A stretch of DNA of 64,000 bases from an uncultured Methanosarcinales archaeon (GTDB lineage Archaea > Nanobdellota > Nanobdellia > Woesearchaeales > GW2011-AR9): contig CAZWBB010000001.1 of the NCBI GenBank assembly GCA_964632045.1, forward strand, positions 1 through 64,000, read 5' to 3'. Shown in pieces: positions 49,495-63,902 of the stretch. The notes beneath the pieces are model-generated. The model made no database searches, had not been told where the DNA came from, and saw only the letters and a list, made by a program, of their open reading frames with translations. Each line of letters starts with the position of its first letter. The stretch's first letter is position 1. A program made the position numbers and the translations under genes.

Positions 49495-50055
49495 CTATTC
49501 TTTCATAAAAGCCCTGATGTAATCCTGGTTCTCAATCGTCTGAGCCATCACTAAGGTAAACCCTTTGAGCGCAATGACCAGGTCGTCCTCACTGCTTTCT
49601 CTGGTATGGACAGTTCCTGAGACTTTCCCGTCCCTCTCAAAGCAAAAGACTTGGGTGAGGGGTGAAGGGTGTTCAACAAAGTAGGCATGAGTCACTCCCA
49701 TCTCCTCCAGCCCTTTGTATTCCTCTTTTTTTAGAAGAGCTTTCCGGAGTACTTTTCTGAAGGGGATAACCTTGCCATTCTCTTGGTATTCACCTTTTCT
49801 GTTGAATGAAGCGACAGGATCCATCCTTCCCCATCTCTTCTTCCGCATGATGGAAAGATAGTCCTTTTTGTCATAAAGTCTTGCCTGGGCGATTACTTTT
49901 CTTTTCTTTGGATCAAGAATGTCTTCCAGGGAGATGTCCCTTGAGTCAGGCTGCAGGTAGTAGTCTGTGTAGATGAAACCTAATCTCTTGGGGTTTTCAC
50001 CTAGCTTGAGAATGTGGGTTCCGTCATCTTCCGTTCTTATCAGGTATTGTGTCAT
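49495..50055 (-). CDS. Hypothetical protein, terminal gene of the array-B operon
   Basis: 186 aa. Starts 18 nt downstream of the vWA gene stop. No motif. Confidence 0.45.
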   Translation of the reverse strand: MTQYLIRTEDDGTHILKLGENPKRLGFIYTDYYLQPDSRDISLEDILDPKKRKVIAQARLYDKKDYLSIMRKKRWGRMDPVASFNRKGEYQENGKVIPFRKVLRKALLKKEEYKGLEEMGVTHAYFVEHPSPLTQVFCFERDGKVSGTVHTRESSEDDLVIALKGFTLVMAQTIENQDYIRAFMKE

Positions 50056-50072
50056 TTTTGGTTACCGCTCTT

Positions 50073-51839
50073 TTATGCTATTCCATAGGTCTTAAACAGT
50101 CTGAGCATCTCATCCGGCAGTCGGTGTAATTCATCCCTGCCCAGCAGAGTGTAATGCTTAGGTCCGATGTGTTTTGTCAGCTCTTTTGCATAACCGTCGA
50201 ACTCCTTGCCGATAACGATGACAAAGGGAAACACTTTGTTGTCGTACAGTTCTTTGAGGACTTCAGGAGCCCCCTTATCGGTCGATTCCCCGTCAGTAAT
50301 GATGGTGATCCCCCGAGGTCGTTCGCCTTGTCTTTCCAACACATGGCCGACCGCTTTTGAACTGGCAGCCAGACGAGTTCCTGCAACATCACTTTTCCTA
50401 CATACAGAGATGATCTTGTTGGCCACTTGAGGATTGTAGGTTTCAGGGAAGTCTTTGATCCTATAAAGGTTACCGCTGAAAGCAAAGAGGCCGAATGGAT
50501 AGTCAGTAACTCCTAACGCTTCCCCCTGGATAAGTAATCCTGCTTTTATCTCATTGATGATATTGTAATGATCCAGATCTGTAGATGGACTGATGTCAGC
50601 CAGGACTGCCCAGGCCGGTCTGTGCTTAAAGCGGCTTTTGGAGACGAAGTGGCGGCCGTTCCTGCTGATGCTGGTCACTTCTCTCTCCAGATCGGTCTGC
50701 AAAAATTCTTCATATTCTAAGTCTTGACCGGAAAAATCCAGGCGTGAAGAACGATGTGTCTGTTTCAGGCGTCGGAAAATACTTTTCATGGAGCCGATGG
50801 CGTAGGCATACTTGTCCCGCAGCTCTTTTTCTTTACGAATGACCCAGTCGGAGTAATCTGGATTCACTTTGACGATGGAGATGTCGGCATCCTCGGATGC
50901 TTCTGTATAGAGACTTTCCCTATCTTTGTCATGCTTAGATGGTTTGGGCTTAGTCTTTTTCCCTTTTGGGTCCGGCTTTTCCTCCTTACCTTTGCCTTTC
51001 TTGAGCCGTTTGGGTCTTTTCTCCTTTTTGTCACGTCCTTCTCTGGGTTTGACTTCCCCCCCATAACCCTGCTGCGGGCTGCCAGGAGTCTTGCTGTGGT
51101 TGCCTTTTCCCTGCTGTTGGGGGAGACGTTTTATCTTCTGCTTGATGTCAAAATTCTCTTTGAATATCTGGTAGATCTTATCGACGGCTTCTTTGTCTTC
51201 ATAGATGGAATCGGCAGAATGACACAGTTCTACACATTCTTCCAGTATCTGCTGATGTTCTTCAGGGACAGGTTCAACTGTGCAGCCCAGCAGAGCCTGC
51301 TGCAGGAATTGTTCTCTGAAAGCGTCCAGCTCAGACATTTTTTTTATGCTTGGCCGGAAATATTTTATGGCATCGTGATGAACTTCCTTGTCATACTTGG
51401 CCAATCCAGGCAACTGCTCACAACGCTGCGCATCGATCCGTCTGTCTTTGACGATGTTATCTATGAATCCGGCCAGGGCAGGATTCTCGGTGAGGTCTGC
51501 ATGGTTCCTCTGCAGGTAGACTCCGACCACACCTTCTCCTTGATTCCTAATAGAATGGATCTCATCTCCGAAATATTCTTCATATTCCCTGATATGGTCA
51601 GCTTCATGAGCAGTGGAGTTGGCTATGTTCATCTCATTATCTCTTTTTTTCTTGCAGAGCTTCTCTCTTGCTGGCAGGAAGATCTTCGTTCCGTCAGTAG
51701 CAGGACAGCCGTTATCACCTTCGATCATCGAACCGCCCTGAATCTCGATGGGATGTTTTTGAGAGGCGCCTTTACCGATACGAAAATCTACCATCCTTTC
51801 CAGTTTTCCAAGCACTTCTGATGTTTTTACTGTGGTCAT
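50073..51839 (-). CDS. HExxH putative metallopeptidase N-domain, Lys-rich linker and vWA domain (DUF2201-like architecture)
   Basis: HEADH (STAHEADHIREYEEY). MIDAS DxSxS (AVLADISPSTD) with downstream T and ITDGEST motifs. About 70-aa K/E/P-rich low-complexity linker. ATGA overlap with 51836. Confidence 0.75.
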   Translation of the reverse strand: MTTVKTSEVLGKLERMVDFRIGKGASQKHPIEIQGGSMIEGDNGCPATDGTKIFLPAREKLCKKKRDNEMNIANSTAHEADHIREYEEYFGDEIHSIRNQGEGVVGVYLQRNHADLTENPALAGFIDNIVKDRRIDAQRCEQLPGLAKYDKEVHHDAIKYFRPSIKKMSELDAFREQFLQQALLGCTVEPVPEEHQQILEECVELCHSADSIYEDKEAVDKIYQIFKENFDIKQKIKRLPQQQGKGNHSKTPGSPQQGYGGEVKPREGRDKKEKRPKRLKKGKGKEEKPDPKGKKTKPKPSKHDKDRESLYTEASEDADISIVKVNPDYSDWVIRKEKELRDKYAYAIGSMKSIFRRLKQTHRSSRLDFSGQDLEYEEFLQTDLEREVTSISRNGRHFVSKSRFKHRPAWAVLADISPSTDLDHYNIINEIKAGLLIQGEALGVTDYPFGLFAFSGNLYRIKDFPETYNPQVANKIISVCRKSDVAGTRLAASSKAVGHVLERQGERPRGITIITDGESTDKGAPEVLKELYDNKVFPFVIVIGKEFDGYAKELTKHIGPKHYTLLGRDELHRLPDEMLRLFKTYGIA

Positions 51840-52870
51840 TTTATATCTGTTTCTAGTGTGTTCTTTATCTCCGGTATATCAACCTTCCATGGATCGATAA
51901 TCTTTACATTTTTAGGTTTGACTTCTGGCTTAGGTTTCTTTTTCTTTGGTGGCTTCATGTATGGTCTCAGGGTACTTCTGCCGGTGGGGAAAACATAGGG
52001 GTAGACTAGCGATGCTGCTAACCTTACAGGGTAGACTAAAGGATGAATTCCGTCCAGAAGAAGAAATCCTGCCACGGGGATAAGTGCCGCATTGGCTATG
52101 TCTGCTTCTGGGGAGTATCCTTTTCCTGCTTTGTCAAGAATGTCCTCGCCCCGCAGTTTTCGTGAAGCATATCCAAACAATAAGGGAAGGATTCCTCCCA
52201 GGAGTATTCCTGCTCCCCAGGGAATCCTGTCTTCCCAGGGAAAATCGTCAGAAATTCTTTTTATATCAAGTGTGTCCCTTCTTTTGTAGAGGCCGCTCTT
52301 GAAGCGTTTAATATCTTCGGGCGGTCTGAAAGTACCATATAGGTCCCAGATATTTCCATTTAAGTCCAGTCTTAATTGTTTTGTGATGCCCGCGCCATGA
52401 TGCAGAAATCTGTAGTGTGTCTCACGGACCCACTCTTCTTTTGCTGCAAGATGCGTCTGCATCGCTTTGAGATCATTTCCGGCCACACTTCTAACAAATT
52501 CAAAATATTCCCGCTGTTCTGGAGTGTGGACAAGACTGTTCTTTTGAGTCTCTGAGGTCTTCTGGCGGATCTCTTTATCGGTCCTGCTTAGGACGGATTC
52601 TAAAGCAGTGATCTCATGGGTGTTCAGTTCACGATCAGCGCTGAAAGCATTGTATAGATCGCTGTAGACAAGATATTCTTTTTTTGAGTCGTCGAAAGTG
52701 GGCTGCTCTGGAGTAAGTTTTTCCGGGAGTGAGATGCCAGCTTTGGCGATAGTCTCCTCTACTGTCGGTTCCAGTTTTCTCTCAGCAGCAAGCATGAAGC
52801 CGCTGCCCACCAGCAATCCACCAGCTAGAACAAGTGGAGTACTTTTCCTAAGCATGTATCTGTAGTTCAT
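51836..52870 (-). CDS. C-tail-family paralog, secreted subtype (signal peptide; C-term IIDPWKVDIPEIKNTLE)
   Basis: N-terminal MNYRYMLRKSTPLVLAGGLLVGSGFMLA signal. GxxxG-rich hydrophobic segment (GAGILLGGILPLLFGYASRKLRG). Conserved C-terminal motif. Confidence 0.75.
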   Translation of the reverse strand: MNYRYMLRKSTPLVLAGGLLVGSGFMLAAERKLEPTVEETIAKAGISLPEKLTPEQPTFDDSKKEYLVYSDLYNAFSADRELNTHEITALESVLSRTDKEIRQKTSETQKNSLVHTPEQREYFEFVRSVAGNDLKAMQTHLAAKEEWVRETHYRFLHHGAGITKQLRLDLNGNIWDLYGTFRPPEDIKRFKSGLYKRRDTLDIKRISDDFPWEDRIPWGAGILLGGILPLLFGYASRKLRGEDILDKAGKGYSPEADIANAALIPVAGFLLLDGIHPLVYPVRLAASLVYPYVFPTGRSTLRPYMKPPKKKKPKPEVKPKNVKIIDPWKVDIPEIKNTLETDIK

Positions 52871-53943
52871 TCTGAATCTTTCCTCACTTCTAATGTACTT
52901 TTTATCTCTGGTATCTCAACTTCCCATGGATCGATGATCTTTGCTTTTGGAGGTTCGATCTCAGGAGGTTCTGTTTCAGGCTCTTCTACCTGCACCTTTC
53001 CTGTTTTCTTCTTTTCGCTCGGGAAAATATATGGGCAGACTAACGCTGCCGCGATCCTTACTGGGTAGACCATTGGATGGATACTATCAAGAAGTATGAA
53101 TCCCGCGACGGGATTTGCAATAATGTTGATGTAATCACTTGTGCCTCCGTTTTCTCCATCACCTATAAATTCCTCGCCACGAATTCTCCTTACTCCATAA
53201 CTAAAAAGTCCTGGCAGCAGTAATCCCATAAAAAGACCCAGGGAGTAAGGTATCTTATCCTCCCAGGGGTAGTCGTCGATGAAGTCTCTAATCAGAAGGT
53301 TTTCTCTGCTGTTGTAGAGACCACTCTTGAAATGTTCTATTTCTTTGCTTGGATTGAATAGGTTCCTCAGGTATACGGGTTCTCCTTTTCTCCGGTCACC
53401 GCGGTCTTGCTTATGGATGTTTCCAGTGTACGGTGTAGAAAGATTGACGATCTTACCTGAACCATGATGCCAGTATCTGTCCACTGTTGAAGCCAACCAT
53501 TCTTCCTTTTTCTCAAGATGCAGGCGAAGTTCTTTAAGATCAGTGCTTTTGATTCCAAGAACATAAGTTACATATTTCTGTTCTGCTTCTGAACGGATTG
53601 CGTTGATGTCCCACAATTCCTCGCTCTTCTTACCTATTTCCTCCACCAATCTGTCCAGGATATATTCTAGCGCTTCGATCTCTCCAGTACTGAGTTCATC
53701 ATCGGTAGTGAATCTTTCATAAGCTCTGCTGTAGATAAGGAATTCTTGTTTTGGCTTATCGTAGATAGGCTCTTTTGGAGTCAGTCTTTCTGGTAGGGGG
53801 AAGTCGATGCTGGCAGGGATGCCTTCTTCTGCATTTTCTCCCTCGGTTGGTTGTTCACTTCCACTTAACATGATGCTTCCTGTCAACAATCCACCAGCTA
53901 GGATGAGTGGAGTTCCTTTCCTAAGTATCTTTTTGTAGTTCAT
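52867..53943 (-). CDS. C-tail-family paralog, secreted subtype
   Basis: Signal peptide MNYKKILRKGTPLILAGGLLTG. C-term KIIDPWEVEIPEIKSTLE. Confidence 0.75.
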   Translation of the reverse strand: MNYKKILRKGTPLILAGGLLTGSIMLSGSEQPTEGENAEEGIPASIDFPLPERLTPKEPIYDKPKQEFLIYSRAYERFTTDDELSTGEIEALEYILDRLVEEIGKKSEELWDINAIRSEAEQKYVTYVLGIKSTDLKELRLHLEKKEEWLASTVDRYWHHGSGKIVNLSTPYTGNIHKQDRGDRRKGEPVYLRNLFNPSKEIEHFKSGLYNSRENLLIRDFIDDYPWEDKIPYSLGLFMGLLLPGLFSYGVRRIRGEEFIGDGENGGTSDYINIIANPVAGFILLDSIHPMVYPVRIAAALVCPYIFPSEKKKTGKVQVEEPETEPPEIEPPKAKIIDPWEVEIPEIKSTLEVRKDSE

Positions 53944-54932
53944 GTTGTGTCTTTGAGGATGTTTTCTATCTCAGGGATCTCTACTTTCCAGGGATTGATG
54001 ATCTTTGGTTTAACTTTGGGCTTATTCATGAGCGGCTTCTTGTACTTTTTCGGTTTACGATTTCTAGTATGGAAAACATAAGGATAAATTATAGATGCAG
54101 CTAGTCGGATTGGGTAGACTAGAGGATGGATGCCATCAAGAAGAAAGATGCCGGCTGCTGGATTAAGTACAGCGTTAATTATATCTGAGTATCGAGCGGA
54201 TTGTTTTCTTGCATCAAATAAATTCTCACCACGTAGTTTTCGCGAGGCATATCCAAACAATACTGGAAGGAATCCTCCTAATAGCAGTCCTGCTCCCCAA
54301 GGTATTCTGTCTTCCCAGGGATGGTCTTCCTTGAATGTTTTTATGACAACATCAGGATATTTGTTGTAAACAACGTTAAGGAGATAGGTTCCTTTTGGTT
54401 CAAATACTGATTCAAGGTCACGGATATTCCCCTCGTCTAGATCAGCTAGGTATTTTGATGCCCCAAATCCGTGATGCCAGTATTTTCCTTCAGTAGTTGA
54501 TATCCATTCTTCCTTTGCTTTTAGATGTTTACGTAATTCTTTTAGGTCCTTGGCCATACGTTCAGTTAAGTAGAAATGATCCCTTCCTTGCTTCGATTTC
54601 ATTTGATAAGCTCTTTCAGTCTTATGTTGCAATTCCAGGATGGTTCTACTTAGCACGTGCTCCAAGGCGGTGATCTCGTGGGTGTCTAATTCTCCATCAT
54701 TGGTGAAAGCAGTGTACAATTCACTGAAGACCGAATATTCTTTTGTAGGATCACCAAGAAGCGGTTTCTCAGGAGTCATCCTTTCCGGCAGTGTTATCCC
54801 AGCAGCAGCAATCGTCTCTTCTACTGTCGGCTCTTCAGCAGCTTCGTGAGCTGGATAAAGAGCGCTGCCTACCAATAAGCCACCTGCCAGCGCAAGTGGA
54901 ATACTTTTTTTGATTATATTTTTGTATTTCAT
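53940..54932 (-). CDS. C-tail-family paralog, secreted subtype
   Basis: Signal peptide MKYKNIIKKSIPLALAGGLLVG. C-term KIINPWKVEIPEIENILK. Confidence 0.75.
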   Translation of the reverse strand: MKYKNIIKKSIPLALAGGLLVGSALYPAHEAAEEPTVEETIAAAGITLPERMTPEKPLLGDPTKEYSVFSELYTAFTNDGELDTHEITALEHVLSRTILELQHKTERAYQMKSKQGRDHFYLTERMAKDLKELRKHLKAKEEWISTTEGKYWHHGFGASKYLADLDEGNIRDLESVFEPKGTYLLNVVYNKYPDVVIKTFKEDHPWEDRIPWGAGLLLGGFLPVLFGYASRKLRGENLFDARKQSARYSDIINAVLNPAAGIFLLDGIHPLVYPIRLAASIIYPYVFHTRNRKPKKYKKPLMNKPKVKPKIINPWKVEIPEIENILKDTT

Positions 54933-54947
54933 CTTTTGCCTACCTCA

Positions 54948-56384
54948 TCATACAAATTTCTCCACAACCTCCATCAGCTCCTTAGCCATCTGGCCTCCTC
55001 CATGAGCGATGTCGTTCTCGTAGGTCACCAATGGATTGATAACCATGTCTCTGAACAGATCTCTCTGGGTGATGTTCGTTCCAGAAGCGATCCGTTGCGC
55101 TACTTCAACAGCTCCTTTCAGTCCAAGATCCTTGTTGTAGGTGTGTACCTTGCCGCGCATCTCATCAAGCACACTGGAGATCATCTCTGCTGTATCATAC
55201 TCGATTCCCGGTGCACGGGCCATGAGGATGTCTGTAGTATTGTCTTTAGAGGGGTAGCCCATCTTTAGCTGGTTGAACCTCTGTAATGTTGCGTCGTTCC
55301 ATTCATTGTGGGTATAGTTGGCGTGGAAATTACCCAGCGCAACAAACCTGAAGTTTGGTCCTGCTCTGAGCAGCTCGTAACCAAAATGGGTGTTTACTGG
55401 CAACTCGCCGGTTTCCAGGAAAACGTTCAATGCTGTAAACTCATCCTGGTGAATCGGAGCGGCTTCTTCCAAAGCATAAACGCCGTCGTGTATCAATGCG
55501 AGGGTCAGTGCTCCCGGTGAAAAGACTGGTTTGTCTATACCTGGAACAAACTGTCCGATCGTCCGTGAGACACGGAAAGAGCTTCCACCTTTCTCGTAGA
55601 AGTAAGGGATACTTCTCTCACAGGCATATTCCCTGGTAAGTACGCTCTTTCCATTTCCGGTCGGTCCGTTGAGGATTATCGGTCTTGTGTATTCATCCAT
55701 GTAAGTAAAGAACCTGTCCTTTTCTCCTTTCTGGTCCTGGTAAGGGAAAGCATCTTTGATCATCCTGGGGGCAAAGTGTTGCTTTACAAAACAGGTGAAA
55801 TCTGTCTCTTCCATGCTCTTTCGCGGCGTGATGACGGTCGGAGCCTTCACTTCCTTCTTCTTGACACTTTTTCCTTCAACATCGGCCATAATCCTTTCCA
55901 GCATCACCAAAGGCAGAAAGGCTTTGCATTCTGAAGAGGTGGTGGTTAGAGTGGCCCTTTTCCTTCCGTCGCTTTCAAAGAGATCCAATACACCCTGCTC
56001 CTCCTTGCTGCGGATATTATAGCGGTGGGTGATACCCATCTCCTGCAACTTTTCTAATCCTTCTTCTTCAGGCAGCTCATCGGCATCTGCCCGGTCGATG
56101 TCGTATTTTCGGCCATTGACACGCAGAGTCAAATGGTCTTCATCCTCAAAAGTAAGGATGGAGAGAAATTCACCGTTCTTCAGCTGAACACGGTCTTTTT
56201 CCGGCAGATGGGAACTGATAATTCCTAGTTCACTATCATCCTGCATCGAACTCACTTCGTAGTGTATGGGCAGTTCCAGTTCATCCTCAAGAGTAGGCGT
56301 CTTCACTGCCACTTTGTCACCTTGGTCGTCCGTATTGACCAGCACAACTCCTTTTTCCTGAAAAGCTATGGTATATTGTTTCAT
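54948..56384 (-). CDS. AAA+ ATPase, CbbQ/NorQ/MoxR-like, with N-terminal extra domain
   Basis: Walker A LNGPTGNGKS (compare CbbQ GPTGCGKT). Walker B-like VYALEEA. Start set at MKQYTIAFQ so that ATG overlaps the TGA of the upstream paralog (ATGA). The track ORF extends to 56444. Confidence 0.7.
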   Translation of the reverse strand: MKQYTIAFQEKGVVLVNTDDQGDKVAVKTPTLEDELELPIHYEVSSMQDDSELGIISSHLPEKDRVQLKNGEFLSILTFEDEDHLTLRVNGRKYDIDRADADELPEEEGLEKLQEMGITHRYNIRSKEEQGVLDLFESDGRKRATLTTTSSECKAFLPLVMLERIMADVEGKSVKKKEVKAPTVITPRKSMEETDFTCFVKQHFAPRMIKDAFPYQDQKGEKDRFFTYMDEYTRPIILNGPTGNGKSVLTREYACERSIPYFYEKGGSSFRVSRTIGQFVPGIDKPVFSPGALTLALIHDGVYALEEAAPIHQDEFTALNVFLETGELPVNTHFGYELLRAGPNFRFVALGNFHANYTHNEWNDATLQRFNQLKMGYPSKDNTTDILMARAPGIEYDTAEMISSVLDEMRGKVHTYNKDLGLKGAVEVAQRIASGTNITQRDLFRDMVINPLVTYENDIAHGGGQMAKELMEVVEKFV

Positions 56385-57367
56385 TTTTTTCCTCCAAATC
56401 TGTTTTCTAGTATGTTTTTTATCTCTGGAATGTCTACACTCCATGGATCGATAAGCCTGAAAGGTTCTTGTTCTATTACTTCTTCCGTCTCGTCTTCTTC
56501 CGCCTGTGGCTGTTGTTTTTGATGGGTTGCTTTCTTTCCTGTGATCAGAGATTCAAAAAACTCATAGATCATGTTCTTGTCGGAGCGGGTATATCCTATG
56601 GAGAGTCCTCTTTGGGAATCTGTGTTTTTGAATTCTTCTCGAAGAATCTCAAAATGCTTGTCTAGTTTTTTCCTTAGCCTTTTTATTCTCTGTTTGCTGA
56701 ATGGTCCTTTCACGCTTTTAATATCCTCGTAAGCACGCATGAACCTGTCAAGGAAAAAATCAGGGTTCTTCAGTTTTCTTTCGAGATGTTTATATGTGGG
56801 AATGTACCCAATTGCATGAAGTGGACCGCAGGGGCTACCTTTGTAGCCTTTGAGACCTGTCAACATTTCCGCTGCGAATAATCCTGCTACGACGGGCAGA
56901 TAGAGGCGTTCAGGAACCCCAAGATAAATGGAAGCTTCTGTCAATCCCAGGACTCCTGCAATAGAGGCTGCGAATCCAGGAAGGCGGCTTCTACGCAGAT
57001 ACGAGTCCCAGTGAGAGATGTATCCTCTTTTCCGGGTGAGTTGGACCTCGACGCTGCCTGGATGCCAGATTCTCCAGTGGCCTTCACTTAAGTATTCCAT
57101 ATAATCCTCCTCCTCATGCGGTACCTTTTGCCCTGTGGCAGATTCAGTCCTCTCCATGAGAGTACGGAAAAGTGGATAATCTTTCTCTTCAAGATCGGGT
57201 CTGAAAAGTACACCCTGGTAATAGTCGTTTTCGGAACTGCCAAGGTTCCTGTATAGGCGGACAATATACCCGTCTAAGGTTGTCTGCGCCATATACTTCC
57301 TTCTCTTCTTCACTTCAATGATATCTTTAAAGATTCCCTGGGAGAACCTCATGGTGGTGTAGCTCAT
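56381..57367 (-). CDS. C-tail-family paralog, cytoplasmic/membrane subtype (C-term LIDPWSVDIPEIKNILENRFGGKK)
   Basis: Family core (YYQGVLFRPDLEEKDYPLFRTLMER). GxxxG hydrophobic segment, then GPLHAIGYIP. Conserved C-tail. Confidence 0.75.
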   Translation of the reverse strand: MSYTTMRFSQGIFKDIIEVKKRRKYMAQTTLDGYIVRLYRNLGSSENDYYQGVLFRPDLEEKDYPLFRTLMERTESATGQKVPHEEEDYMEYLSEGHWRIWHPGSVEVQLTRKRGYISHWDSYLRRSRLPGFAASIAGVLGLTEASIYLGVPERLYLPVVAGLFAAEMLTGLKGYKGSPCGPLHAIGYIPTYKHLERKLKNPDFFLDRFMRAYEDIKSVKGPFSKQRIKRLRKKLDKHFEILREEFKNTDSQRGLSIGYTRSDKNMIYEFFESLITGKKATHQKQQPQAEEDETEEVIEQEPFRLIDPWSVDIPEIKNILENRFGGKK

Positions 57368-58137
57368 CTTTCCTTCCCTCCTTGCAGCACATTCTCTATC
57401 TCAGGGACTTCTACTTCCCACGGATCGACTACCCCAGTGGGGACCATTACCACAGATTCTGGCTCCTCTGCGTCCTCATCGAGTTCTGCATGTACCCCTA
57501 AAGCAGCGTAGTACACGGCACGCTCAAGTTTTAACAGATGTGGACTACGCATCTGTACAGAGAGACCTTTCTGAAATGCTGTAAATGGGAATAAATCTGT
57601 GATCAGATCATAATAGTAATCTATTTTCTCCTCCATCTTGCCAAGTTTTTTCAGGCTTAGTGAATCTCTATTATTATCAAATCTGGTGTATGCTTCCAGG
57701 AATCTATCAGGGATGTGATTGGGATGCAGGGCTTTGTTCTTTTGGAGGTAGTATGACAACATGAATCCGGCTTTTGCCCTAACTCCTGCAGGCAGCATTT
57801 TCGTCTGTTCCGGGTTGAGATGGATGGTAAGGTTATGACTGTCATAGTGCAGCTTCAATCCACCCCTGGCTAAATACTCGTCAAATGAATCTGAGTCATT
57901 CGCTATACCCCGCTTAGTTGCATTGGCAATCCTGTTGGTCATGTCCTTGAAAAAGTGAGAGAAGCTCTGAGGAGAGTGGATCACTGCCTGGAAATCCTTT
58001 TGGCCTGCCTCTCTATAGAGCCGGTAAAATCTATACCTTCCCAAATCAGTATGCATGTAGAAAGCACCATCTCTCCTGATCTCTAATCTACTTCTTCCAG
58101 TTACCTGGTCTGCCATGGTCGTTACCTGAAGAGTCAT
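57364..58137 (-). CDS. C-tail-family paralog (short, no hydrophobic segment; C-term VVDPWEVEVPEIENVLQGGKER)
   Basis: Conserved C-tail. GGAGG encoded by the GG codons precedes the next ATG. Confidence 0.7.
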   Translation of the reverse strand: MTLQVTTMADQVTGRSRLEIRRDGAFYMHTDLGRYRFYRLYREAGQKDFQAVIHSPQSFSHFFKDMTNRIANATKRGIANDSDSFDEYLARGGLKLHYDSHNLTIHLNPEQTKMLPAGVRAKAGFMLSYYLQKNKALHPNHIPDRFLEAYTRFDNNRDSLSLKKLGKMEEKIDYYYDLITDLFPFTAFQKGLSVQMRSPHLLKLERAVYYAALGVHAELDEDAEEPESVVMVPTGVVDPWEVEVPEIENVLQGGKER

Positions 58138-59108
58138 TCTCTCTTCACCTCCAACACATTCTCGATCTCAGGGATTTCTACACTCCAAGGGTCGATCAAT
58201 TTTACTGGTTCTGCTCTCTCTATAGGTTCTGCTGTCTCATCCGGAGATTCACCACACGCTACCCAATTATTTATCCCTGTGCTGAGATAGGCGATGCGTT
58301 CAAACACTCTGTCTTGGTCGGAGTTGACAAAAGTGATGGAGAATCCTTTCTGTTTGTAAGTTTGTTTGAATATCTCCTTGATAACCTCATAGTATAAGTC
58401 CATCTTGTTGATCATCTTCATGATTTTTCTTGGAGAAGCTGTCTTCTTTTTCTTTTCAAGAGCATTATGAGTCCGCATAAATCTTTCAGTGGCATAATCC
58501 GGATGCATCATCTTATTTTTGGCAAGGAACCATGCCGGAACGTAGCCGAGGGCATGGACAGGACCTACCCACTCTTTCCTTTCCACTAATGTAAATGCAC
58601 CGCCCATCCCTTCAAGAACTGAGTACATCATTCCAGCTAACACCATGTCACCACCACCTGATCCAAACTGCTCGTTATATGCCGCCAAAATAACTCCCGC
58701 AAAACCCGCCAACGTGCATACTGTCCCAGGAATGTGGGCGATGTTGGCCGCTCTTCTGTGTAGTCTTCCAGTGAATGGATATCCTTTGGTGTTTACATTC
58801 AATACAGAACCGTCAGAATAATTTTTCACCATCCCTTTTCTGGCGATGTAACCGTAATAATCATCGACATCATTGTCAACATGCTCCCCCGTGATATCCT
58901 CCATCCTGTCCGTAAGCAGCTTGAACAGAGCAGGATCCTTCTCTGTTGAAAAGACAGAACCCTCATATTTCTGACCTAAAGCATGATGCAATCGGGAGTA
59001 CAAGCCGTTACCATGACGGTCCTGAAAGTAGTACTCGTCATCTCTCTTGATGGATATCCTTTTGAAACCTTTTACAGTATCCTCGATTGTGGTTACTTTG
59101 TAGTTCAT
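58134..59108 (-). CDS. C-tail-family paralog (C-term LIDPWSVEIPEIENVLEVKRE)
   Basis: Start set at MNYKVTTIED (ATGA overlap with upstream stop at 59105-59108). Gly-rich hydrophobic segment, then GPVHALGYVP. Confidence 0.7.
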   Translation of the reverse strand: MNYKVTTIEDTVKGFKRISIKRDDEYYFQDRHGNGLYSRLHHALGQKYEGSVFSTEKDPALFKLLTDRMEDITGEHVDNDVDDYYGYIARKGMVKNYSDGSVLNVNTKGYPFTGRLHRRAANIAHIPGTVCTLAGFAGVILAAYNEQFGSGGGDMVLAGMMYSVLEGMGGAFTLVERKEWVGPVHALGYVPAWFLAKNKMMHPDYATERFMRTHNALEKKKKTASPRKIMKMINKMDLYYEVIKEIFKQTYKQKGFSITFVNSDQDRVFERIAYLSTGINNWVACGESPDETAEPIERAEPVKLIDPWSVEIPEIENVLEVKRE

Positions 59109-59833
59109 CTTCTTCCCCCCTGTGCTACGTTTTCTATCTCTGGTATGTCTACTTCCCATGGGTCGATGATTTCAGTTGGCACTGTTGCGATGATGGGCTG
59201 TTCTTCCACAACTTCCTCTTTGGATTCTTCAGCCACCCGAAGGATTTTGCTGTAATGATTGTATAGGAGGTATAGATTCCTGCTTCTGGTGAATAAAGAA
59301 AAACCGTTCTGTTTACCAGAAAAAATCTTATCAAGAAGGGAAAAATGCTGATCCAGTTCCTGACCCAAACGCAAGGCCTCATCCTTCTGGTTAAAGCCAA
59401 GGGTGTGGTATTCTTTGTGCGTCTGAAGGAATTCTTTCCACAATTCGTCTCCTGTTTCAACTAGTATGTCCTCGGCACCTGGTTCTGGGATCGTTATGTC
59501 GGTGTATTTAGTGTCGACAGATAAGCCTTTTCGATTTACAAAATTGATAAATTCTGCTGGAGAGGTATCTATCCCGGACGGTTTACCTTGCTTCTCTTCG
59601 ATTCTTTCAACCAACAGCTTAAAGAGGTTGTAGTCCTTTTCATCATCCGTGAAATCTGGTTTGAACAGAGTTCCAAGGTATTGGGCGACTGGGGGAATAC
59701 CGTTTTCCATCTTGTAGACCCTTAGAAACAGGCAATCATCCAGTTCTGCCTGAGCCAGCATCTTATCTCCGCATCTAATTTCGGTTACAGGTTTTCCAAA
59801 TCCTCTGTCTACTTCCTGAACTGAATAGCTCAT
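59105..59833 (-). CDS. C-tail-family paralog (MSYSVQEVDRGFGK N-type; C-term IIDPWEVDIPEIENVAQGGRR)
   Basis: N-terminus is near-identical to 60750 and 62704 members. Conserved C-tail. Confidence 0.75.
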   Translation of the reverse strand: MSYSVQEVDRGFGKPVTEIRCGDKMLAQAELDDCLFLRVYKMENGIPPVAQYLGTLFKPDFTDDEKDYNLFKLLVERIEEKQGKPSGIDTSPAEFINFVNRKGLSVDTKYTDITIPEPGAEDILVETGDELWKEFLQTHKEYHTLGFNQKDEALRLGQELDQHFSLLDKIFSGKQNGFSLFTRSRNLYLLYNHYSKILRVAEESKEEVVEEQPIIATVPTEIIDPWEVDIPEIENVAQGGRR

Positions 59834-60753
59834 CCTTTCACCCCCTGCAGCAAACTCTTGATTTCAGGAATGTCTACTTCCCATGGGTTGATTAGGGGCA
59901 ATGGTTGTCCTGAATCCTCTGGCTGTATCAGATGCTTTTGATTTCCTGTCTTTAGGTAAGAGAAAAAACCAAGTACTTCATCAAGGGTTCCTTTATAATG
60001 GATGGTAAGGCCCTGATAATCCTGAGTCTGGTGAAATTGTCCTTCCAGGAGTGGAATCAAAGGACATAATCTGTTTCTTAGAGACTGACATTCTCCGTAG
60101 TTCGTAGAATTTTCTGCCTTCAGGGCAATACCTACAGCTTTTTCCCACAACCAGGAAGGGTGGCTGAACTTGCGGGAGTAATATTGTTTGTATGGAAGGT
60201 GGCCTAGGCATCTAAGTGGACCAAGCCAGTATTTGGATTCTCTCTTTTCACCCAGATAAATGCCGATTAATAATTCTGGGGTTGTGGACATGAGGAAGGC
60301 GAGAGGTGCAGGAAGGCCAACTTGATTCAGCACACAGGCCCCGGCAGTTATTCCTGCTACTATGGTAGCGATGCCCAAAGGCAATGATTTATCGCGGGCA
60401 TAATCATCATAGCCGTAGGGGGTAAAACGGGTACTTTTATGATTGATTCTTAGAATTGTCTTATCAGAGTACTTAACAAGTCCCTCCCGTAGATATTTGG
60501 GATAGGTGCCAATGCTATTATCAATTTCGATCCCTGGATAATCCTCCAGAAAGGCTGTTAAGTTTTGAAATCTTTTATAATCAGCGGGCAAAATTTGCAG
60601 CGGTCTGAAGAGGACTCCATAAGCACAATCTTTGTGGCCCCATATCCTCAGGCAGTCTCCCTCCAAGGTGGTCTGCTGTAGGGATCTTTTGCCATCACTA
60701 AGGCAGCCTCCTCCAAGTATGGGATGAGTTCTGGTGACTATTCTATATGTCAT
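59830..60753 (-). CDS. C-tail-family paralog (C-term LINPWEVDIPEIKSLLQGVKG)
   Basis: Hydrophobic GxxxG segment, then GPLRCLGHLP. 3' ~45 nt are near-identical to the 60750 member. Confidence 0.75.
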   Translation of the reverse strand: MTYRIVTRTHPILGGGCLSDGKRSLQQTTLEGDCLRIWGHKDCAYGVLFRPLQILPADYKRFQNLTAFLEDYPGIEIDNSIGTYPKYLREGLVKYSDKTILRINHKSTRFTPYGYDDYARDKSLPLGIATIVAGITAGACVLNQVGLPAPLAFLMSTTPELLIGIYLGEKRESKYWLGPLRCLGHLPYKQYYSRKFSHPSWLWEKAVGIALKAENSTNYGECQSLRNRLCPLIPLLEGQFHQTQDYQGLTIHYKGTLDEVLGFFSYLKTGNQKHLIQPEDSGQPLPLINPWEVDIPEIKSLLQGVKG

Positions 60754-61769
60754 CCTTTCACCCCCTGCAGCAAACTCTTGATTTCAGGAGCATCTACGTC
60801 CCATGGGTTGGTGATCTTTGGCTTGTCATCTAATTCTGGAATATCCATCTCCCACGGATCGATGATCGGAAAAGAGTCCTCCTTCGCGAGTACGCTCTGT
60901 CTGCAGCAGTCTATTCCGGCGAAAGTTTCGTTTACTTTGTCCAGTATACCATCCCGGTAGCTGATGGAAAGACCTTTCTGTCTTTGGGTGTAAGGAAAGA
61001 TTGATGTAAGATATGAAAAGTATTTGTCTGCTTTTCTTTGCAGGAAGTATCTGCTTATTCTGTTGCTGCCTTGTAGTTTGTCGTTAGTGTGGAGAAATTC
61101 ATCCCATACTTTTGCCGGGCCGAGAATCCTTTCTCTCATGTACATATGGCTGAATGCCCAGCCTAAGGAGTGGAATGGGCCTGACCATCCTCTCTCTTTG
61201 AAATTGTGGAAGCCGGCGCAGATCTCAAAGATTCCCATGGCCATCATCCCTTCTAACATAGTACCTGGAAATCCGACTGATTGTATAAATGGTCCTCCAA
61301 TAGCAGCAGTACCAATCGCTGATGTCAGCAGACCGGGGATTCTGCCTTTCCAGCTGAGGTTCTTATCCAACCATTGTGATAACTGTCCTTGCCAGAACTT
61401 ATGTGAATTCCGTTCCAATTTTAGTTCAATTCCATCTACACTGGCATTGAGATACTGGTCACCCATCAGGTTCATCCTGTAAGCAGCAGGCGAAGTATCG
61501 ATACCACTCTTCTTTCCCGTGTAAGTTTCAATAGCTTCTACCATCGTCAGGAAATCCTGGTATCCAGCAGCATTAGCTCCAACCTTCTTGAAAAGTATCC
61601 CATGATGGTCCTTGTTGGCAAGAGGCACTCTATTCTCCTGCAGTCCATGATAGGTCCTGTAAAAAAATCCATCATCCAATTCCACCTGAGCCAGCATCTT
61701 CTTTCCACATCTCACTTCCGTGACCAGTTTTCCAAGTCCTCTGTCTACTTCATGGATGGAATAACTCAT
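60750..61769 (-). CDS. C-tail-family paralog with duplicated C-tail motif (IIDPWEMDIPELDDKPKITNPWDVDAPEIKSLLQGVKG)
   Basis: MSYSIHEVDRGLGKLVTEVRCG N-type. GPFHSLGW motif. Tandem duplication of the DPW..PEI tail. Confidence 0.75.
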   Translation of the reverse strand: MSYSIHEVDRGLGKLVTEVRCGKKMLAQVELDDGFFYRTYHGLQENRVPLANKDHHGILFKKVGANAAGYQDFLTMVEAIETYTGKKSGIDTSPAAYRMNLMGDQYLNASVDGIELKLERNSHKFWQGQLSQWLDKNLSWKGRIPGLLTSAIGTAAIGGPFIQSVGFPGTMLEGMMAMGIFEICAGFHNFKERGWSGPFHSLGWAFSHMYMRERILGPAKVWDEFLHTNDKLQGSNRISRYFLQRKADKYFSYLTSIFPYTQRQKGLSISYRDGILDKVNETFAGIDCCRQSVLAKEDSFPIIDPWEMDIPELDDKPKITNPWDVDAPEIKSLLQGVKG

Positions 61770-62707
61770 CTTTCCTTGCCTCCCTGCAGTACATTCTTTA
61801 TCTCAGGAATCTCTACTTTCCATGGGTCGATTATGGGGGATGGGTCCTGCACGATTTCTGGTTCTTCTTCTGTTATAACATTTATTCCTGCAAGTATGCC
61901 GGAAAAAGTGTTGTAAACATCATCCAGGCTCCTGCTGCTATAAGTGACAAAAAACCCTTTGGCTAGTTCAGTATTCTTGAATGTCTCTTCCAGGACGGCA
62001 AAACTATCCTCCATCTTTCTGCATAAAGAATGATATTTCTTCATGTTGCAGATATTACCCTGCAGGGACTGGGCTTTCTGGTGGGTTTTCGTTAGTTCAC
62101 TCAAGATTCTATCAGTGTTGTAGTATTTACTTAGGACATATTCAGTTGGAAAATGTGCCAGGCCGTGGAATCCTTCTCTGAGTTCCAGGCCTCTAATTAA
62201 TCCCACACTACAATCGGTTAAGGCTGCAAAAAGACCTACTGCTAGGGCAGCTCCGACACCTACACTCATCCCGGAGATAGCAGCAGAAGAAGTCAACCAA
62301 CCAGGAATACTGCCTTTCTTTCTGATATATTCATTGCGGTTAGGCGAATATTGGGTTCTGTCATTTGTATTGAGCTCCCATCTTAGGGGTCCTAATTTGT
62401 GATAGGTCCCTGGATGCTTGGCCCAACCCACGAAATTTTCTGGAGTGATGTCCAATCTGCTAGAGCGGCCTGATTGCTCCTCCATCCCTCGGGCCAGAAG
62501 CTCAAATGTATGGTAGAATTCTTGGTCCATTTTTGTCGGTCGGGTAAAGAGTACCCCTTGATAATCCGAACTGTTTCGGCCTCCATATATCCGAAGTTCA
62601 AGATCTCTCTCCAAAGATGTGACTCGGGCTAGATATGAATCATCGTACTTGATTTCCTCTACCTTGCTGCCATTGATCCAATCTCTGGTGTCTACAGAAA
62701 TGCTCAT
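61766..62707 (-). CDS. C-tail-family paralog (C-term IIDPWKVEIPEIKNVLQGGKER)
   Basis: Family core GVLFTRPTKMDQEFYHTFELLARGMEE. GxxxG segment. Confidence 0.75.
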   Translation of the reverse strand: MSISVDTRDWINGSKVEEIKYDDSYLARVTSLERDLELRIYGGRNSSDYQGVLFTRPTKMDQEFYHTFELLARGMEEQSGRSSRLDITPENFVGWAKHPGTYHKLGPLRWELNTNDRTQYSPNRNEYIRKKGSIPGWLTSSAAISGMSVGVGAALAVGLFAALTDCSVGLIRGLELREGFHGLAHFPTEYVLSKYYNTDRILSELTKTHQKAQSLQGNICNMKKYHSLCRKMEDSFAVLEETFKNTELAKGFFVTYSSRSLDDVYNTFSGILAGINVITEEEPEIVQDPSPIIDPWKVEIPEIKNVLQGGKER

Positions 62708-63702
62708 CCTTCCACCTCCAGTACATTCTGTATCTCAGGAATCTCTACATCCCACGGGTCGATGATGGGCGAGGGTTCTGAAGGATTTGCATCCTCCGCT
62801 TCTCCTAGCCCGCTTCCATGCAAGATCTCTGCGAAGGTATCATATAAAGAATCAAAATCATGACTCTTGAGACTGATCGAGAATCCTTTTTGGAGAGTTG
62901 TATAGCCGAATATCTCTCTCAGAAATCCAAAGTAATAATCCTGTGTGTTAAGGAGAGAAGTGTATCTCCTTTGCTGCTTGATACAGTTGCCCAAAGATTC
63001 CATTTCTCTATGTGCTTCCAGGAATTTACCAAGTACAAACTGGGGGTCTTTTAGATTTTTGAGGCGGTGAAAGAATGATGGAGCATGTCCCAAGCTGAAT
63101 AATGGACCTCGCCGGCCATTCTGTGCTGGCATACACAAATCAGCATATGTTCTGACTCCGATTATTTCAGGCAAGGTAGAGCAGCCTATGAGTGGCAACG
63201 AAATATATAGCGGAATATCTGGCGCGGAAAAAAGCACACTCGCTGACGTTAAAATACCTCCGATTGAGGTCATTAACCCCATAATATGAGGTGTTTCTCG
63301 CAGATACGAGTACATTTTTGGTGAGTAATAACCTGAATTCCAGACGTGCTTCGTAATACGTTTATCCTGGATGCGCAGTCTGAGATCGAAGTAGCCAACA
63401 TCTGCGCTTGCTCCCTTCCTTTTCACATAGTCGACGAAGCTGGGAGCGTCTGTCTTCAATCCACTGGACTTTCCTGTGCAGATTTCAATTCTCTCAACAA
63501 GGGATTTGAATGTTTGATGTTTCTTCTCATCAACCGTTAGGTTGGGAATGAATAGGACCCCTCTGTGACTTCGGCCATCATCATACGCCCGGAAATAGAC
63601 GTTATCATCTACAGCAACCTGGGCAATCCTCGTATTGTCACAAATAACTTCCGTGACCAGTTTTCCAAGTCCTCTGTCTACTTCATGGATGGAATAGCTC
63701 AT
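62704..63702 (-). CDS. C-tail-family paralog (MSYSIHEVDRGLGKLVTEV N-type; C-term IIDPWDVEIPEIQNVLEVEG)
   Basis: The 5' ~50 nt are near-identical to the 60750 member. GPLFSLGHAP motif. Confidence 0.75.
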   Translation of the reverse strand: MSYSIHEVDRGLGKLVTEVICDNTRIAQVAVDDNVYFRAYDDGRSHRGVLFIPNLTVDEKKHQTFKSLVERIEICTGKSSGLKTDAPSFVDYVKRKGASADVGYFDLRLRIQDKRITKHVWNSGYYSPKMYSYLRETPHIMGLMTSIGGILTSASVLFSAPDIPLYISLPLIGCSTLPEIIGVRTYADLCMPAQNGRRGPLFSLGHAPSFFHRLKNLKDPQFVLGKFLEAHREMESLGNCIKQQRRYTSLLNTQDYYFGFLREIFGYTTLQKGFSISLKSHDFDSLYDTFAEILHGSGLGEAEDANPSEPSPIIDPWDVEIPEIQNVLEVEG

Positions 63703-63902
63703 TCTCCCTCCTCCAGCACATCTATCGTCACCTGTACTATCGTCTGTGGTTTCAGTTTATCTTTTAGGAAAGAAGGAAGTATTATTACAGATTGCTTTCC
63801 GTGCTTGGCTATCTTCTTAGTCAGTACTATCGGCTTCAATATTACACCACCAACACATAAATGATGTGTCTCTAACACACCCCACAGAACCACCTGACAC
63901 AT
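63699..63902 (-). CDS. Small ORF at the head of the array-B operon, possibly an AbrB/SpoVT-like swapped-hairpin protein
   Basis: C-terminal ...KHGKQSVIILPSFLKDKLKPQTIVQVTIDVLEEGE resembles AbrB/MazE-type (K.G.vtIP..hR..L.h..GD.h.h). ATGA overlap with the first paralog. True start may be an internal TTG. Confidence 0.3.
   Translation of the reverse strand: MCQVVLWGVLETHHLCVGGVILKPIVLTKKIAKHGKQSVIILPSFLKDKLKPQTIVQVTIDVLEEGE

What the first reader, a model, noticed from the sequence alone, without database searches (positions are those of the whole stretch)
59105..63702. Near-identical nucleotide tracts at both ends of array-B paralogs (recent gene conversion)
The 5' ~50 nt of 60750..61769 and 62704..63702 are almost identical (61721-61769 vs 63651-63699, encoding MSYSIHEVDRGLGKLVTEV). 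The 3' ~45 nt of 59830..60753 and 60750..61769 are identical (59830-59875 vs 60750-60795). The intervening bodies differ strongly. Terminal tracts are being homogenised while the interiors diversify.
Basis: seen in the sequence. Interest (0 to 1): 0.55.

Follow-up and report, generated by a model that had tools for sequence, protein, structure and literature searches.

The report
Gene-conversion tracts in tagged paralog array
Two short, almost perfectly identical DNA patches shared by otherwise very different neighbouring genes are real and are best explained by recent copying between gene copies; the genes form an undescribed archaeal family whose members all carry the same short C-terminal peptide next to a MoxR ATPase and a VWA protein.

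Summary
The heads of g1 and g3 match at 54 of 55 nt (63648-63702 vs 61715-61769, 50 exact). The tails of g3 and g4 match at 40 of 40 nt (60750-60789 vs 59830-59869) and at 57 of 61 overall. No other pair among the 11 tagged paralogs shares more than 19 nt, and the proteins are only 22-40% identical. Synonymous sites are saturated in the gene bodies but almost all identical inside the tracts (P about 1e-6 each). The g3 head is mosaic, g1-like and then g5-like. g3 also carries a second C-terminal motif that copies the g4 tail. Recent short-tract ectopic recombination (gene conversion) is therefore well supported for these pairs, but not across the whole array. The deeper cause of the conserved ends is functional. 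Every paralog ends in [DN]PWxV[DE]IPEI, followed by a Shine-Dalgarno-like run and an ATGA stop/start overlap. The same peptide ends unrelated proteins around homologous CbbQ/NorQ-type MoxR and VWA gene pairs in Heimdallarchaeia-like contigs. Residues flanking the motif follow the genome rather than orthology, which is concerted evolution. That the peptide docks clients onto the MoxR-VWA machine is inferred, not shown.

The parts
63648..63702 (-). g1 head tract: first 55 nt of gene 62704..63702 (codons 1-19, MSYSIHEVDRGLGKLVTEV)
   Evidence: 54/55 identical to 61715-61769, with a 50-nt exact run. 16/18 synonymous-capable codons are identical, P=1e-6.
61715..61769 (-). g3 head tract: first 55 nt of gene 60750..61769. 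Identity to g1 starts exactly at the ATG and ends at codon 19.
   Evidence: Mosaic: nt 1-57 follow g1 (10 informative sites to 0) and nt 58-99 follow g5 (12 to 3), Fisher P=1e-4.
60750..60810 (-). g3 tail tract: second C-terminal motif plus tail (NPWDVDAPEIKSLLQGVKG*). The last 40 nt (60750-60789) are identical to the g4 tail.
   Evidence: 40-nt exact word and 57/61 overall. 12/12 codons identical, P=1.2e-6.
59830..59890 (-). g4 tail tract (NPWEVDIPEIKSLLQGVKG*), partner of the g3 tail tract
60831..60866 (-). g3 first, internal copy of the motif (IIDPWEMDIPEL), 51 nt upstream of the second copy. It deviates at two positions that are invariant in the terminal copies (V to M, I to L).
   Evidence: Motif scan, codon view, invariant columns.
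56381..63702 (-). Eight tandem paralogs of one family: g1 62704-63702, g2 61766-62707, g3 60750-61769, g4 59830-60753, g5 59105-59833, g6 58134-59108, g7 57364-58137, g8 56381-57367. They are 22-40% identical. Every junction is an ATGA stop/start overlap preceded by a GGAGG-like run. Each gene ends in [DN]PWxV[DE][IVA]PEI.
54948..56384 (-). MoxR-class AAA+ ATPase (478 aa; the start overlaps the g8 stop in ATGA)
   Evidence: Pfam AAA_5 E=5e-9. Closest solved relatives are CbbQ (E=4e-12) and NorQ. Homologues at 43-60% identity include one named Ca. Heimdallarchaeaceae.
51836..54932 (-). Three paralogs of a second family with a hydrophobic N-terminus (h1 53940-54932, h2 52867-53943, h3 51836-52870) that carry the same C-terminal motif
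   Evidence: Their bodies match L002 proteins X08/X14 across genomes.
50073..51839 (-). 588-aa protein with a C-terminal VWA domain (DISPS MIDAS-like motif and an N-terminal HEADH, both read by eye), partner of the AAA+
   Evidence: Pfam VWA E=1.7e-4, just below the curated cut-off. 592-595-aa proteins with near-identical C-terminal sequence occupy the same position after the AAA+ in L003 and L004.
49495..50055 (-). 186-aa conserved last gene of the system
   Evidence: 48% identical (E=9e-62) to the 180-aa gene that follows the VWA gene in L004; also present in L003 and L005.
63699..63902 (-). 67-aa ORF whose stop overlaps the g1 start. It may be a small regulator, in the position held by an RHH protein in L003 and L004.
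   Evidence: ORF list, no Pfam hit, RHH at the equivalent position in L004. The regulatory role is inference only.

Best explanation
The region is an operon-like array from a Heimdallarchaeia-like archaeon. A CbbQ/NorQ-type MoxR AAA+ ATPase and a VWA protein are surrounded by 11 fast-diverging genes. All 11 end in the same short peptide, [DN]PWxV[DE]IPEI, which sits after a disordered, acidic or proline-rich linker. Each gene is translationally coupled to the next through a Shine-Dalgarno-like run inside its last codons and an ATGA overlap.

Two layers explain the finding. The first is long-term purifying selection on the peptide and on the coupling signal. This keeps the 3' ends similar while synonymous sites still drift.

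The second layer is recent short-tract, non-reciprocal ectopic recombination (gene conversion or template switching), which copied patches between particular paralogs. About 55 nt were copied between the g1 and g3 heads, and 40-61 nt between the g3 and g4 tails. The tail event left g3 with a second motif copy. These islands of similarity are the only places where paralogs of roughly 30-55% sliding nucleotide identity can still pair.

Repeated over time, such events make the tails genome-specific (concerted evolution), so every paralog stays compatible with the single shared machine.

Shown: the tracts, their excess synonymous identity, the mosaicism, conservation of the motif across genomes and across unrelated proteins, and the genome-specific tail flavour. 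Inferred: that the peptide is a docking or recognition tag for the MoxR-VWA pair, and the exact recombination mechanism.
For: The tracts are outliers: 50 and 40 nt exact, against 19 nt or less for all other pairs and 26 nt or less in the sister arrays L002 and L004.

Same-codon use at identical residues is 16/18 and 12/12, against 0.35 in bodies and 0.48 in the motif. In the all-pairs tables these two pairs are by far the strongest. The permutation test gives global P<0.0005 for both.

The g3 head is g1-like and then g5-like (Fisher P=1e-4). g3 carries two motifs, and the distal one matches the g4 tail.

An independent assembly is identical over 9.5 kb, and a second-sample contig carries the same g3 tail.

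The motif is conserved on all 16 complete paralogs of L002 and on 7 mostly unrelated small proteins of L004. It is also on the single homologue upstream of the AAA+ and VWA genes in L003. Within the 64-kb window it occurs nowhere outside the array.

Bodies find cross-genome best hits (X08 with Wh, X01 with Wg8/Wg6, X12 with Wg5/Wg3/Wg1). Tail-flanking residues instead group by genome: 0.43 identity within against 0.20 between, permutation P<0.0002.

The AAA+ is most similar to CbbQ and NorQ. The C-terminal 40 residues of the g1 model have low pLDDT, as expected for a linker plus a linear motif.
Against: There are only two clear events, so 'homogenisation' as an ongoing array-wide process is extrapolated.

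The tail tract overlaps the Shine-Dalgarno/ATGA region, so nucleotide-level selection contributes there. It cannot explain the 25 nt further upstream, because other junctions reach the same signal with different sequences.

Donor and recipient cannot be assigned. The within-genome against between-genome tail test is not phylogenetically independent.

No experiment or co-fold links the peptide to the AAA+ or VWA protein. Read-level support for the g3 head-to-body junction was not available. A second-sample contig (L008) joins the g2 tail through the shared tract to the g1 body, which shows that the tract can mislead assembly or mediate rearrangement.
Confidence: 0.72

Rival explanations
1. Purifying selection alone. 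The ends are identical because the encoded peptide (and, at the 3' end, the ribosome-binding signal for the next gene) is constrained, and no recombination has taken place.
For: The C-terminal motif and a GGAGG-like run upstream of each ATGA are conserved in all 11 paralogs and in other genomes. Same-codon use in the motif is slightly above expectation (0.48 against 0.38).
Against: Selection on the peptide leaves synonymous sites free. The 12 motif copies use varied codons, yet the two tracts are 16/18 and 12/12 codon-identical. Other junctions build the Shine-Dalgarno-like run from different sequences. The head tract is not universally conserved, and g3 switches from g1-like to g5-like after codon 19. 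Sister arrays under the same constraints share 26 nt or less. No unusual RNA structure is predicted at the junctions (z from -0.5 to +0.45).
Confidence: 0.1
2. Assembly artefact. The shared tracts result from chimeric joining or collapse in a metagenome assembly, so one of the two copies is not really attached to that gene.
For: Contig L008 from a second sample joins the g2 tail through the shared tract to the g1 body. Contig L007 from that sample begins 14 nt past the tract. The repeat therefore does break or misroute at least one assembly.
Against: The window and JGI contig L001 agree base for base over 9,476 nt, including both tracts. The two head copies differ at codon 2 (AGC/AGT) and codon 19 (GTT/GTG) and have different upstream flanks, so two copies exist. 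Repeats of 40-55 nt are shorter than ordinary reads. The g3 tail with its double motif is reproduced in L007. Beyond the tract, g3 continues in homology with g5, so a head of this family is expected there.
Confidence: 0.06
3. Reciprocal unequal crossing-over or segmental duplication rather than gene conversion. The tracts are scars, or substrates, of copy-number change in the array.
For: g1, g3 and g5 lie at a two-gene period (spacings 1933 and 1936 nt), which suggests past duplication of two-gene units. L008 has exactly the junction expected from an unequal crossover between the g3 and g1 heads, that is a [g1 g2] tandem duplication. It has the g3-type AGT at codon 2 followed by the g1 body.
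Against: In the window there are no near-identical whole genes flanking the tracts, which a recent unequal crossover would leave behind. Bodies are 28-33% identical. L008 may equally be an assembly chimera. The mechanisms are not exclusive, because the same tracts can serve both.
Confidence: 0.12

Closest known systems
Interlocus (ectopic) gene conversion and concerted evolution in tandem paralog arrays, giving mosaic divergence
   Same: Short non-reciprocal patches with near-zero synonymous divergence sit in otherwise old paralogs. Parentage is mosaic along one gene, and within-genome similarity of a sub-region exceeds that between orthologues. The general phenomenon is described for tandem paralogues, for example in PMC3966223 and bioRxiv 10.1101/2025.10.29.685298 (titles and abstracts seen).
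   Different: The backgrounds here are extremely diverged (22-40% protein identity). Exchange is therefore confined to islands of 40-60 nt that are held similar by a functional peptide tag, a translational-coupling signal or a conserved N-terminal strand. The host is an Asgard-type archaeon, for which I found no such report.
CbbQ-CbbO and NorQ-NorD: MoxR AAA+ with a VWA partner, acting as remodelling chaperones
   Same: The AAA_5 ATPase is closest to CbbQ and NorQ among solved structures (E=4e-12 and 2.5e-8). A roughly 590-aa partner with a C-terminal VWA domain is encoded downstream, which is the same two-component logic as in PMC9976466 and PMC13036017. It is established knowledge that CbbQO acts on Rubisco and that VWA MIDAS sites bind acidic ligand residues.
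   Different: The ATPase has an extra N-terminal region of about 230 aa. No Rubisco, NOR or other known client is nearby. Instead there are 11 unannotated proteins that share a C-terminal peptide. The VWA hit is just below Pfam's cut-off, and no solved relative was found by sequence.
VMAP-MoxR-vWA ternary conflict systems (Kaur, Burroughs, Iyer, Aravind 2020, PMC7159879)
   Same: The minimal version in L003 has the same strict gene order: variable third protein, then MoxR, then vWA (order stated in PMC7159879). The third component is rapidly diverging and mostly helical in its C-terminal half, and the partners are multiple and diversified.
   Different: No VMAP-C or VMAP-M Pfam model is matched above noise; the only hit is E=0.03 on one L004 protein. 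The VWA protein has no effector domains, there are no PADLOC hits, and the VWA domain is C-terminal rather than N-terminal. The unifying element is a 10-residue C-terminal peptide rather than an EAD domain.
Short terminal targeting peptides that recruit diverse cargo to one machine, for example encapsulin cargo-loading peptides (own knowledge, not tested)
   Same: One short conserved terminal peptide, placed after a flexible linker, sits on otherwise unrelated proteins encoded next to the machinery.
   Different: No shell or encapsulin gene is present. The putative receptor would be a MoxR or VWA protein. The resemblance is purely analogical.

Membership tests
Interlocus gene conversion between paralogs | A tract whose identity, especially at synonymous sites, far exceeds that of the flanking gene | tested here: met
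   16/18 and 12/12 same codons against 35% in bodies. Exact words of 50 and 40 nt against 19 nt or less elsewhere. Permutation global P<0.0005.
Interlocus gene conversion between paralogs | Mosaic parentage or phylogenetic incongruence along the gene | tested here: met
   g3 nt 1-57 track g1 and nt 58-99 track g5, Fisher P=1e-4. The distal motif and tail of g3 track g4.
Interlocus gene conversion between paralogs | Non-reciprocal transfer with an identifiable donor and recipient | not testable with these tools
   This needs an outgroup strain or population data with the pre-conversion allele. The near-identical second-sample contigs already carry both tracts.
Interlocus gene conversion between paralogs | The tracts are real in the genome and not assembly products | tested here: inconclusive
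   An independent contig is identical and two distinguishable head copies exist. No reads were available, however, and L008 shows an alternative join through the tract.
MoxR AAA+ / VWA chaperone pair (CbbQO/NorQD type) | AAA_5 (MoxR-class) ATPase domain with a Walker A motif | tested here: met
   PF07728 E=5e-9, above the cut-off. CbbQ and NorQ are the best PDB matches. GPTGNGKS was read in the sequence.
MoxR AAA+ / VWA chaperone pair (CbbQO/NorQD type) | Adjacent partner protein with a VWA domain and a MIDAS motif | tested here: inconclusive
   PF00092 scores 22.3 bits against a cut-off of 23.8. PF13519 VWA_2 is listed as weak on the P0022-locus protein in the same position after the AAA+. 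The D-x-S-x-S motif (DISPS) was read by eye. There was no PDB hit by sequence, and the structure was not modelled.
MoxR AAA+ / VWA chaperone pair (CbbQO/NorQD type) | A known client enzyme (Rubisco, NOR and the like) in the neighbourhood | tested here: not met
   No such gene lies in 49495-63902. The neighbours have no Pfam or NCBIfam family.
VMAP-MoxR-vWA ternary system | Third component carrying the VMAP-C domain | tested here: not met
   No VMAP Pfam model was hit by six of the eight g paralogs tested or by h1 (g7, g8, h2 and h3 were not scanned). The only trace is VMAP-M9 at E=0.031 on one L004 protein.
VMAP-MoxR-vWA ternary system | Gene order of third component, then MoxR, then vWA | tested here: met
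   L003: the g homologue (347 aa), then AAA_5, then the 592-aa protein. The window follows the same order with expansions. The order is defined in PMC7159879.
VMAP-MoxR-vWA ternary system | vWA component fused to variable effector domains | tested here: not met
   The 588-aa protein shows only a VWA hit and there are no PADLOC matches.

The most novel reading that the evidence does not exclude
The 10-residue C-terminal peptide [DN]PW-x-[VI]-x-IP-[EK]-[IL] is a portable recognition tag. Through it, a Heimdallarchaeia-specific MoxR-VWA machine recruits an open-ended, rapidly diversifying set of client proteins, many of them with hydrophobic (membrane) segments. Short-patch gene conversion seeded at the tag-coding DNA keeps all clients matched to the one machine while their bodies diverge. 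This would be a previously undescribed 'tagged-client' class of MoxR-VWA system in the closest archaeal relatives of eukaryotes. A parallel N-terminally tagged array (153-10688) may work the same way.
Probability: 0.35. Interest if true: 0.7.

Novelty: new variant of a known kind. Interest (0 to 1): 0.5.

Why it matters
The recombination signal itself is a clean example of a known process, interlocus gene conversion. It operates here at the limit of what homology allows, on islands of 40-60 nt inside paralogs that are otherwise saturated, and in an Asgard-type archaeon where such dynamics are essentially undocumented.

The signal also points to a rare gene system. The profile search found only 59 cluster representatives among 1.84 billion proteins. 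In this system a MoxR/VWA pair is surrounded by diverse proteins united only by a terminal peptide.

If that peptide is a recognition tag, two things follow. It gives a directly testable handle (peptide plus ATPase/VWA binding) on how MoxR-VWA chaperones select clients, which is still poorly understood. It also gives a simple sequence rule for finding the clients in Heimdallarchaeial genomes.

There is a practical point as well. The tracts are long enough to misroute short-read assemblies or to drive copy-number change in these arrays.

Tried and rejected
- **Family searches.** Pfam, NCBIfam and PADLOC scans of the paralogs found no family.
- **Word-indexed homologue search with g3.** It found only paralog g1.
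- **Motif-pattern scans.** Scans of GTDB genome contigs and JGI metagenome contigs with alignment A1 produced pattern matches, but none was confirmed by tblastn.
- **RNA-structure explanation.** It was rejected because junction folds are no better than shuffles.
- **Literature.** Searches for the sample id, for Asgard/MoxR/VWA systems and for Asgard gene conversion found nothing specific.
- **Organism name.** Exact-sequence look-ups returned no organism names. The Heimdallarchaeia assignment therefore rests on one named AAA+ homologue at 53% identity. It is also supported by the archaeal ribosomal/EF context of L004.
- **Relation between the two large proteins.** The array-A 596-aa protein and the array-B VWA protein show no BLASTP similarity, so I do not claim they are homologous.
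- **DPW motif resemblance.** I considered a resemblance to the eukaryotic DP[FW] adaptin-binding motifs. I set it aside as untestable here and probably coincidental.


Full report
**What is at the locus**

On the minus strand, 56381-63702 holds eight tandem genes. They are g1 62704-63702, g2 61766-62707, g3 60750-61769, g4 59830-60753, g5 59105-59833, g6 58134-59108, g7 57364-58137 and g8 56381-57367. All belong to one family and are only 22-40% identical in protein.

Every junction is an ATGA stop/start overlap preceded by a purine-rich GGAGG/GGGGG/GGAGGTG run inside the last codons of the upstream gene. The listed ORF for g6 starts too far upstream. Its ATGA-coupled start is at 59108, and L001 calls a 324-aa gene.

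Downstream follow five more genes:
- a MoxR-class AAA+ ATPase (54948-56384; AAA_5 E=5e-9; closest solved relatives CbbQ and NorQ);
- three paralogs of a second family with a hydrophobic N-terminus (h1-h3, 51836-54932);
- a 588-aa protein with a C-terminal VWA domain (50073-51839);
- a conserved 186-aa gene (49495-50055).

All 11 g and h proteins end in [DN]PWxV[DE][IVA]PEI followed by 6-12 residues. The motif occurs 12 times in the window, twice in g3, and nowhere outside this array.

**Checking the observation**

The 5' pairing as written is 3 nt out of register and gives 12/49 matches. In register, 61715-61769 and 63648-63702 match at 54/55 nt with 50 exact.

The 3' tract is exact over 40 nt (60750-60789 vs 59830-59869), not 46, and similar over 61 nt at 57/61.

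Both tracts end exactly at the gene boundary. Identity starts at the ATG of g1 and g3, and it ends at the ATGA of g3/g4 and g4/g5.

**Is it more than protein conservation?**

Yes. The evidence is as follows.
- Among all pairs of the 11 paralogs, the next longest shared word is 19 nt. In the related arrays L002 and L004 the maximum is 26 nt.
- At aligned positions with the same amino acid, paralog bodies use the same codon 34.6% of the time, against 36% expected from codon usage. Synonymous sites are therefore saturated.
- Even the universally conserved motif reaches only 48% same-codon use.
- The g1/g3 head has 16/18 same codons and the g3/g4 tail 12/12, with Poisson-binomial P about 1e-6 each.
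- In tables of all pairs these two stand far apart. Weaker signals appear for g1/g2 tails (5e-4) and for g1/g5 and g3/g5 heads (2-4e-3).
- A Sawyer-type permutation of polymorphic columns gives runs of 49 and 24 sites. The maximum in 2000 permutations was 18.

**Signatures of exchange**

The g3 head is mosaic. In nt 1-57 it agrees with g1 against g5 at 10 sites and never the reverse. In nt 58-99 it agrees with g5 against g1 at 12 sites, against 3 the other way (Fisher P=1e-4).

g3 also has two C-terminal motifs: IIDPWEMDIPEL, then DDKPK, then ITNPWDVDAPEIKSLLQGVKG. The distal copy and tail are the part identical to g4, and the KSLL/QGVKG ending is unique to these two genes.

A patch of g4-type tail was therefore copied onto g3, or the reverse. 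RNA folding of the four junctions is no better than shuffled controls. A structured RNA element is thus not the explanation.

**Artefact check**

JGI contig L001 (12.7 kb, sample 3300009374) is identical to the window over 54525-64000. Whether it comes from the same reads as the 109-kb NCBI contig that also holds these proteins is unknown.

Two short contigs come from another sample (ERZ23499040).
- L007 starts 14 nt past the head tract. It reproduces the g3 body, the double motif and the tail, and runs into g4.
- L008 consists of the g2 body and tail with no mismatch, then a head with the g3-type AGT codon 2, then the g1 body, then the start of g2.

The L008 junction is exactly what an unequal crossover between the g3 and g1 heads would produce, namely a [g1 g2] duplication. 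It is also what an assembler would produce by walking through a 50-nt exact repeat. I cannot tell these apart without reads.

L008 does show that two distinguishable head copies exist: AGC after the 67-aa ORF, and AGT after the g2 tail.

**Why the ends are conserved at all**

Homologues of the AAA+ (43-60% identity) include one named Ca. Heimdallarchaeaceae.
- L002 has an AAA+ that is 60% identical. There, 16 complete flanking genes from several body families all end in DPWxVxIP[ETKVI]I, most of them followed by KEGLR* or EDSRR*. They again show ATGA overlaps and a GGAGG inside the tail.
- In L003 a single g homologue (P0043) precedes the AAA+ and a 592-aa VWA-type protein. A ribbon-helix-helix-like gene lies upstream and the 180-aa gene downstream.
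- In L004 the system lies in a chromosomal ribosomal-protein/EF-1alpha/EF-2 neighbourhood. Seven small proteins, mostly with no detectable similarity to each other, all end in [ND]PW[ED][VI][DN][IV]P; five of them continue with K or R.
- A profile of the eight g paralogs finds only 59 cluster representatives in 1.84 billion proteins, and many carry the same C-terminal motif.

The motif is therefore an old, protein-level feature that is portable between unrelated proteins and tied to this MoxR/VWA pair.

In the AlphaFold model of g1 (pLDDT 84.9, pTM 0.79) the last 40 or so residues are low-confidence. This is what one expects of a linker plus a linear motif. The head tract, by contrast, encodes the first strands of a confident N-terminal beta-sheet domain. 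No solved or viral structure resembles the model.

**Concerted evolution**

Body-only BLAST pairs X08 with Wh1-3, X01 with Wg8/Wg6, and X12 with Wg5/Wg3/Wg1 across the two genomes. These body types therefore predate the split.

The residues around the core motif are nevertheless genome-specific in both g and h types. The window has II-DPW...N[VI]L, and L002 has L[TA]-DPW...EGLR. Flank identity is 0.43 within genomes and 0.20 between them (label permutation P<0.0002). Five of the six cross-genome body-match pairs compared share fewer flank residues than either partner shares on average with its own genomic neighbours (X12/Wg3, at 0.57, is the exception).

Part of this reflects the different ways each genome encodes its Shine-Dalgarno-like run in the tail codons. 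The pattern is what repeated conversion, or co-evolution with one receptor, would give.

**Mechanism: shown and inferred**

Shown: recent copying of patches of 40-60 nt between specific paralogs; long-term conservation of the peptide and the coupling signal; and genome-specific tails.

Inferred: that the exchange is homologous-recombination-type short-patch conversion nucleated on these islands. The bodies, at roughly 30-55% sliding nucleotide identity, offer no other pairing substrate.

Also inferred: that the peptide is a docking tag for the MoxR hexamer or the VWA MIDAS site. This is by analogy with CbbQO/NorQD logic, in which a VWA adaptor brings a client to the ATPase (PMC9976466 and PMC13036017).

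The minimal gene order (variable protein, then MoxR, then VWA) matches the VMAP ternary systems of Kaur et al. (PMC7159879). However, VMAP-C is not detected, the VWA protein has no effector domains, and PADLOC is silent. I therefore do not file it as a member of that family.

**Verdict**

The gene-conversion reading is right for two pairs, plus a few weaker ones. It is incomplete as an account of why the ends are alike.

The process itself is of a known kind. The gene system it acts on appears undescribed. I score interest at 0.5.

Noticed in passing
window 153-10688 (+ strand): A second array ('array A') holds 11 tandem paralogs, 15-46% identical, that share an N-terminal peptide MNILKPLKHGNVLTEEEALKDLE. 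A 596-aa gene (4716-6506) lies in the middle, with HELNH and DTSSS motifs read by eye. The same phenomenon is stronger here: a 52-nt exact word between 3344.. and 4027.., several 32-36-nt words, and a mosaic in which a5 matches a6 over nt 1-52 and a2 over nt 46-80. The 596-aa protein has no Pfam hit and no BLASTP similarity to the array-B VWA protein.
   Followed up: partly
L008 (ENA ERZ23499040 scaffold_54268) against window 61770-63702: A contig from another sample joins the g2 tail through the shared 50-nt tract to the g1 body and then to the g2 head. This is either a real [g1 g2] tandem duplication made by unequal crossover at the tract or an assembly chimera. L007 from the same assembly begins 14 nt after the tract.
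   Followed up: partly
L004:437-7994 and L003:854-5714: A compact version of the system: an RHH gene (Pfam RHH_1 E=5e-4 in L004), proteins carrying the tag, the AAA+, a VWA-type protein of 592-595 aa and a conserved 180-aa gene. In L004 it sits between the EF-1alpha/S10 and EF-2/S7/S12 genes. Seven mostly unrelated small proteins there carry the NPW..IPK C-terminus.
   Followed up: partly
P0022 locus (JGI 3300072015, no DNA available): A homologous AAA+ and VWA pair lies between two tyrosine-recombinase genes and next to a terminase large-subunit-like gene. Some copies of the system may therefore ride on integrated mobile or viral elements.
   Followed up: no
window 54948-56444 and 58134-59159: The mechanical ORFs for the AAA+ (498 aa) and g6 (341 aa) start too far upstream. 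The ATGA-coupled starts give 478 aa (56384) and 324 aa (59108), matching the JGI gene calls.
   Followed up: yes
window 12753-13793, 41145-42893, 27822-28880, 38987-40054, 22764-24956: The rest of the window encodes two eukaryote-type Ser/Thr protein kinases, two SPFH/Band-7 proteins, a UvrD-like helicase with RQC and HRDC domains, and many ORFs without any family. No tRNA genes were found.
   Followed up: no
window 57355-57431 vs 61757-61833: The g7/g8 and g2/g3 junctions (tails ...NVLQGGKER* plus the next start) are 82% identical over 77 nt. This may be an older exchange or a shared descent of junctions.
   Followed up: no
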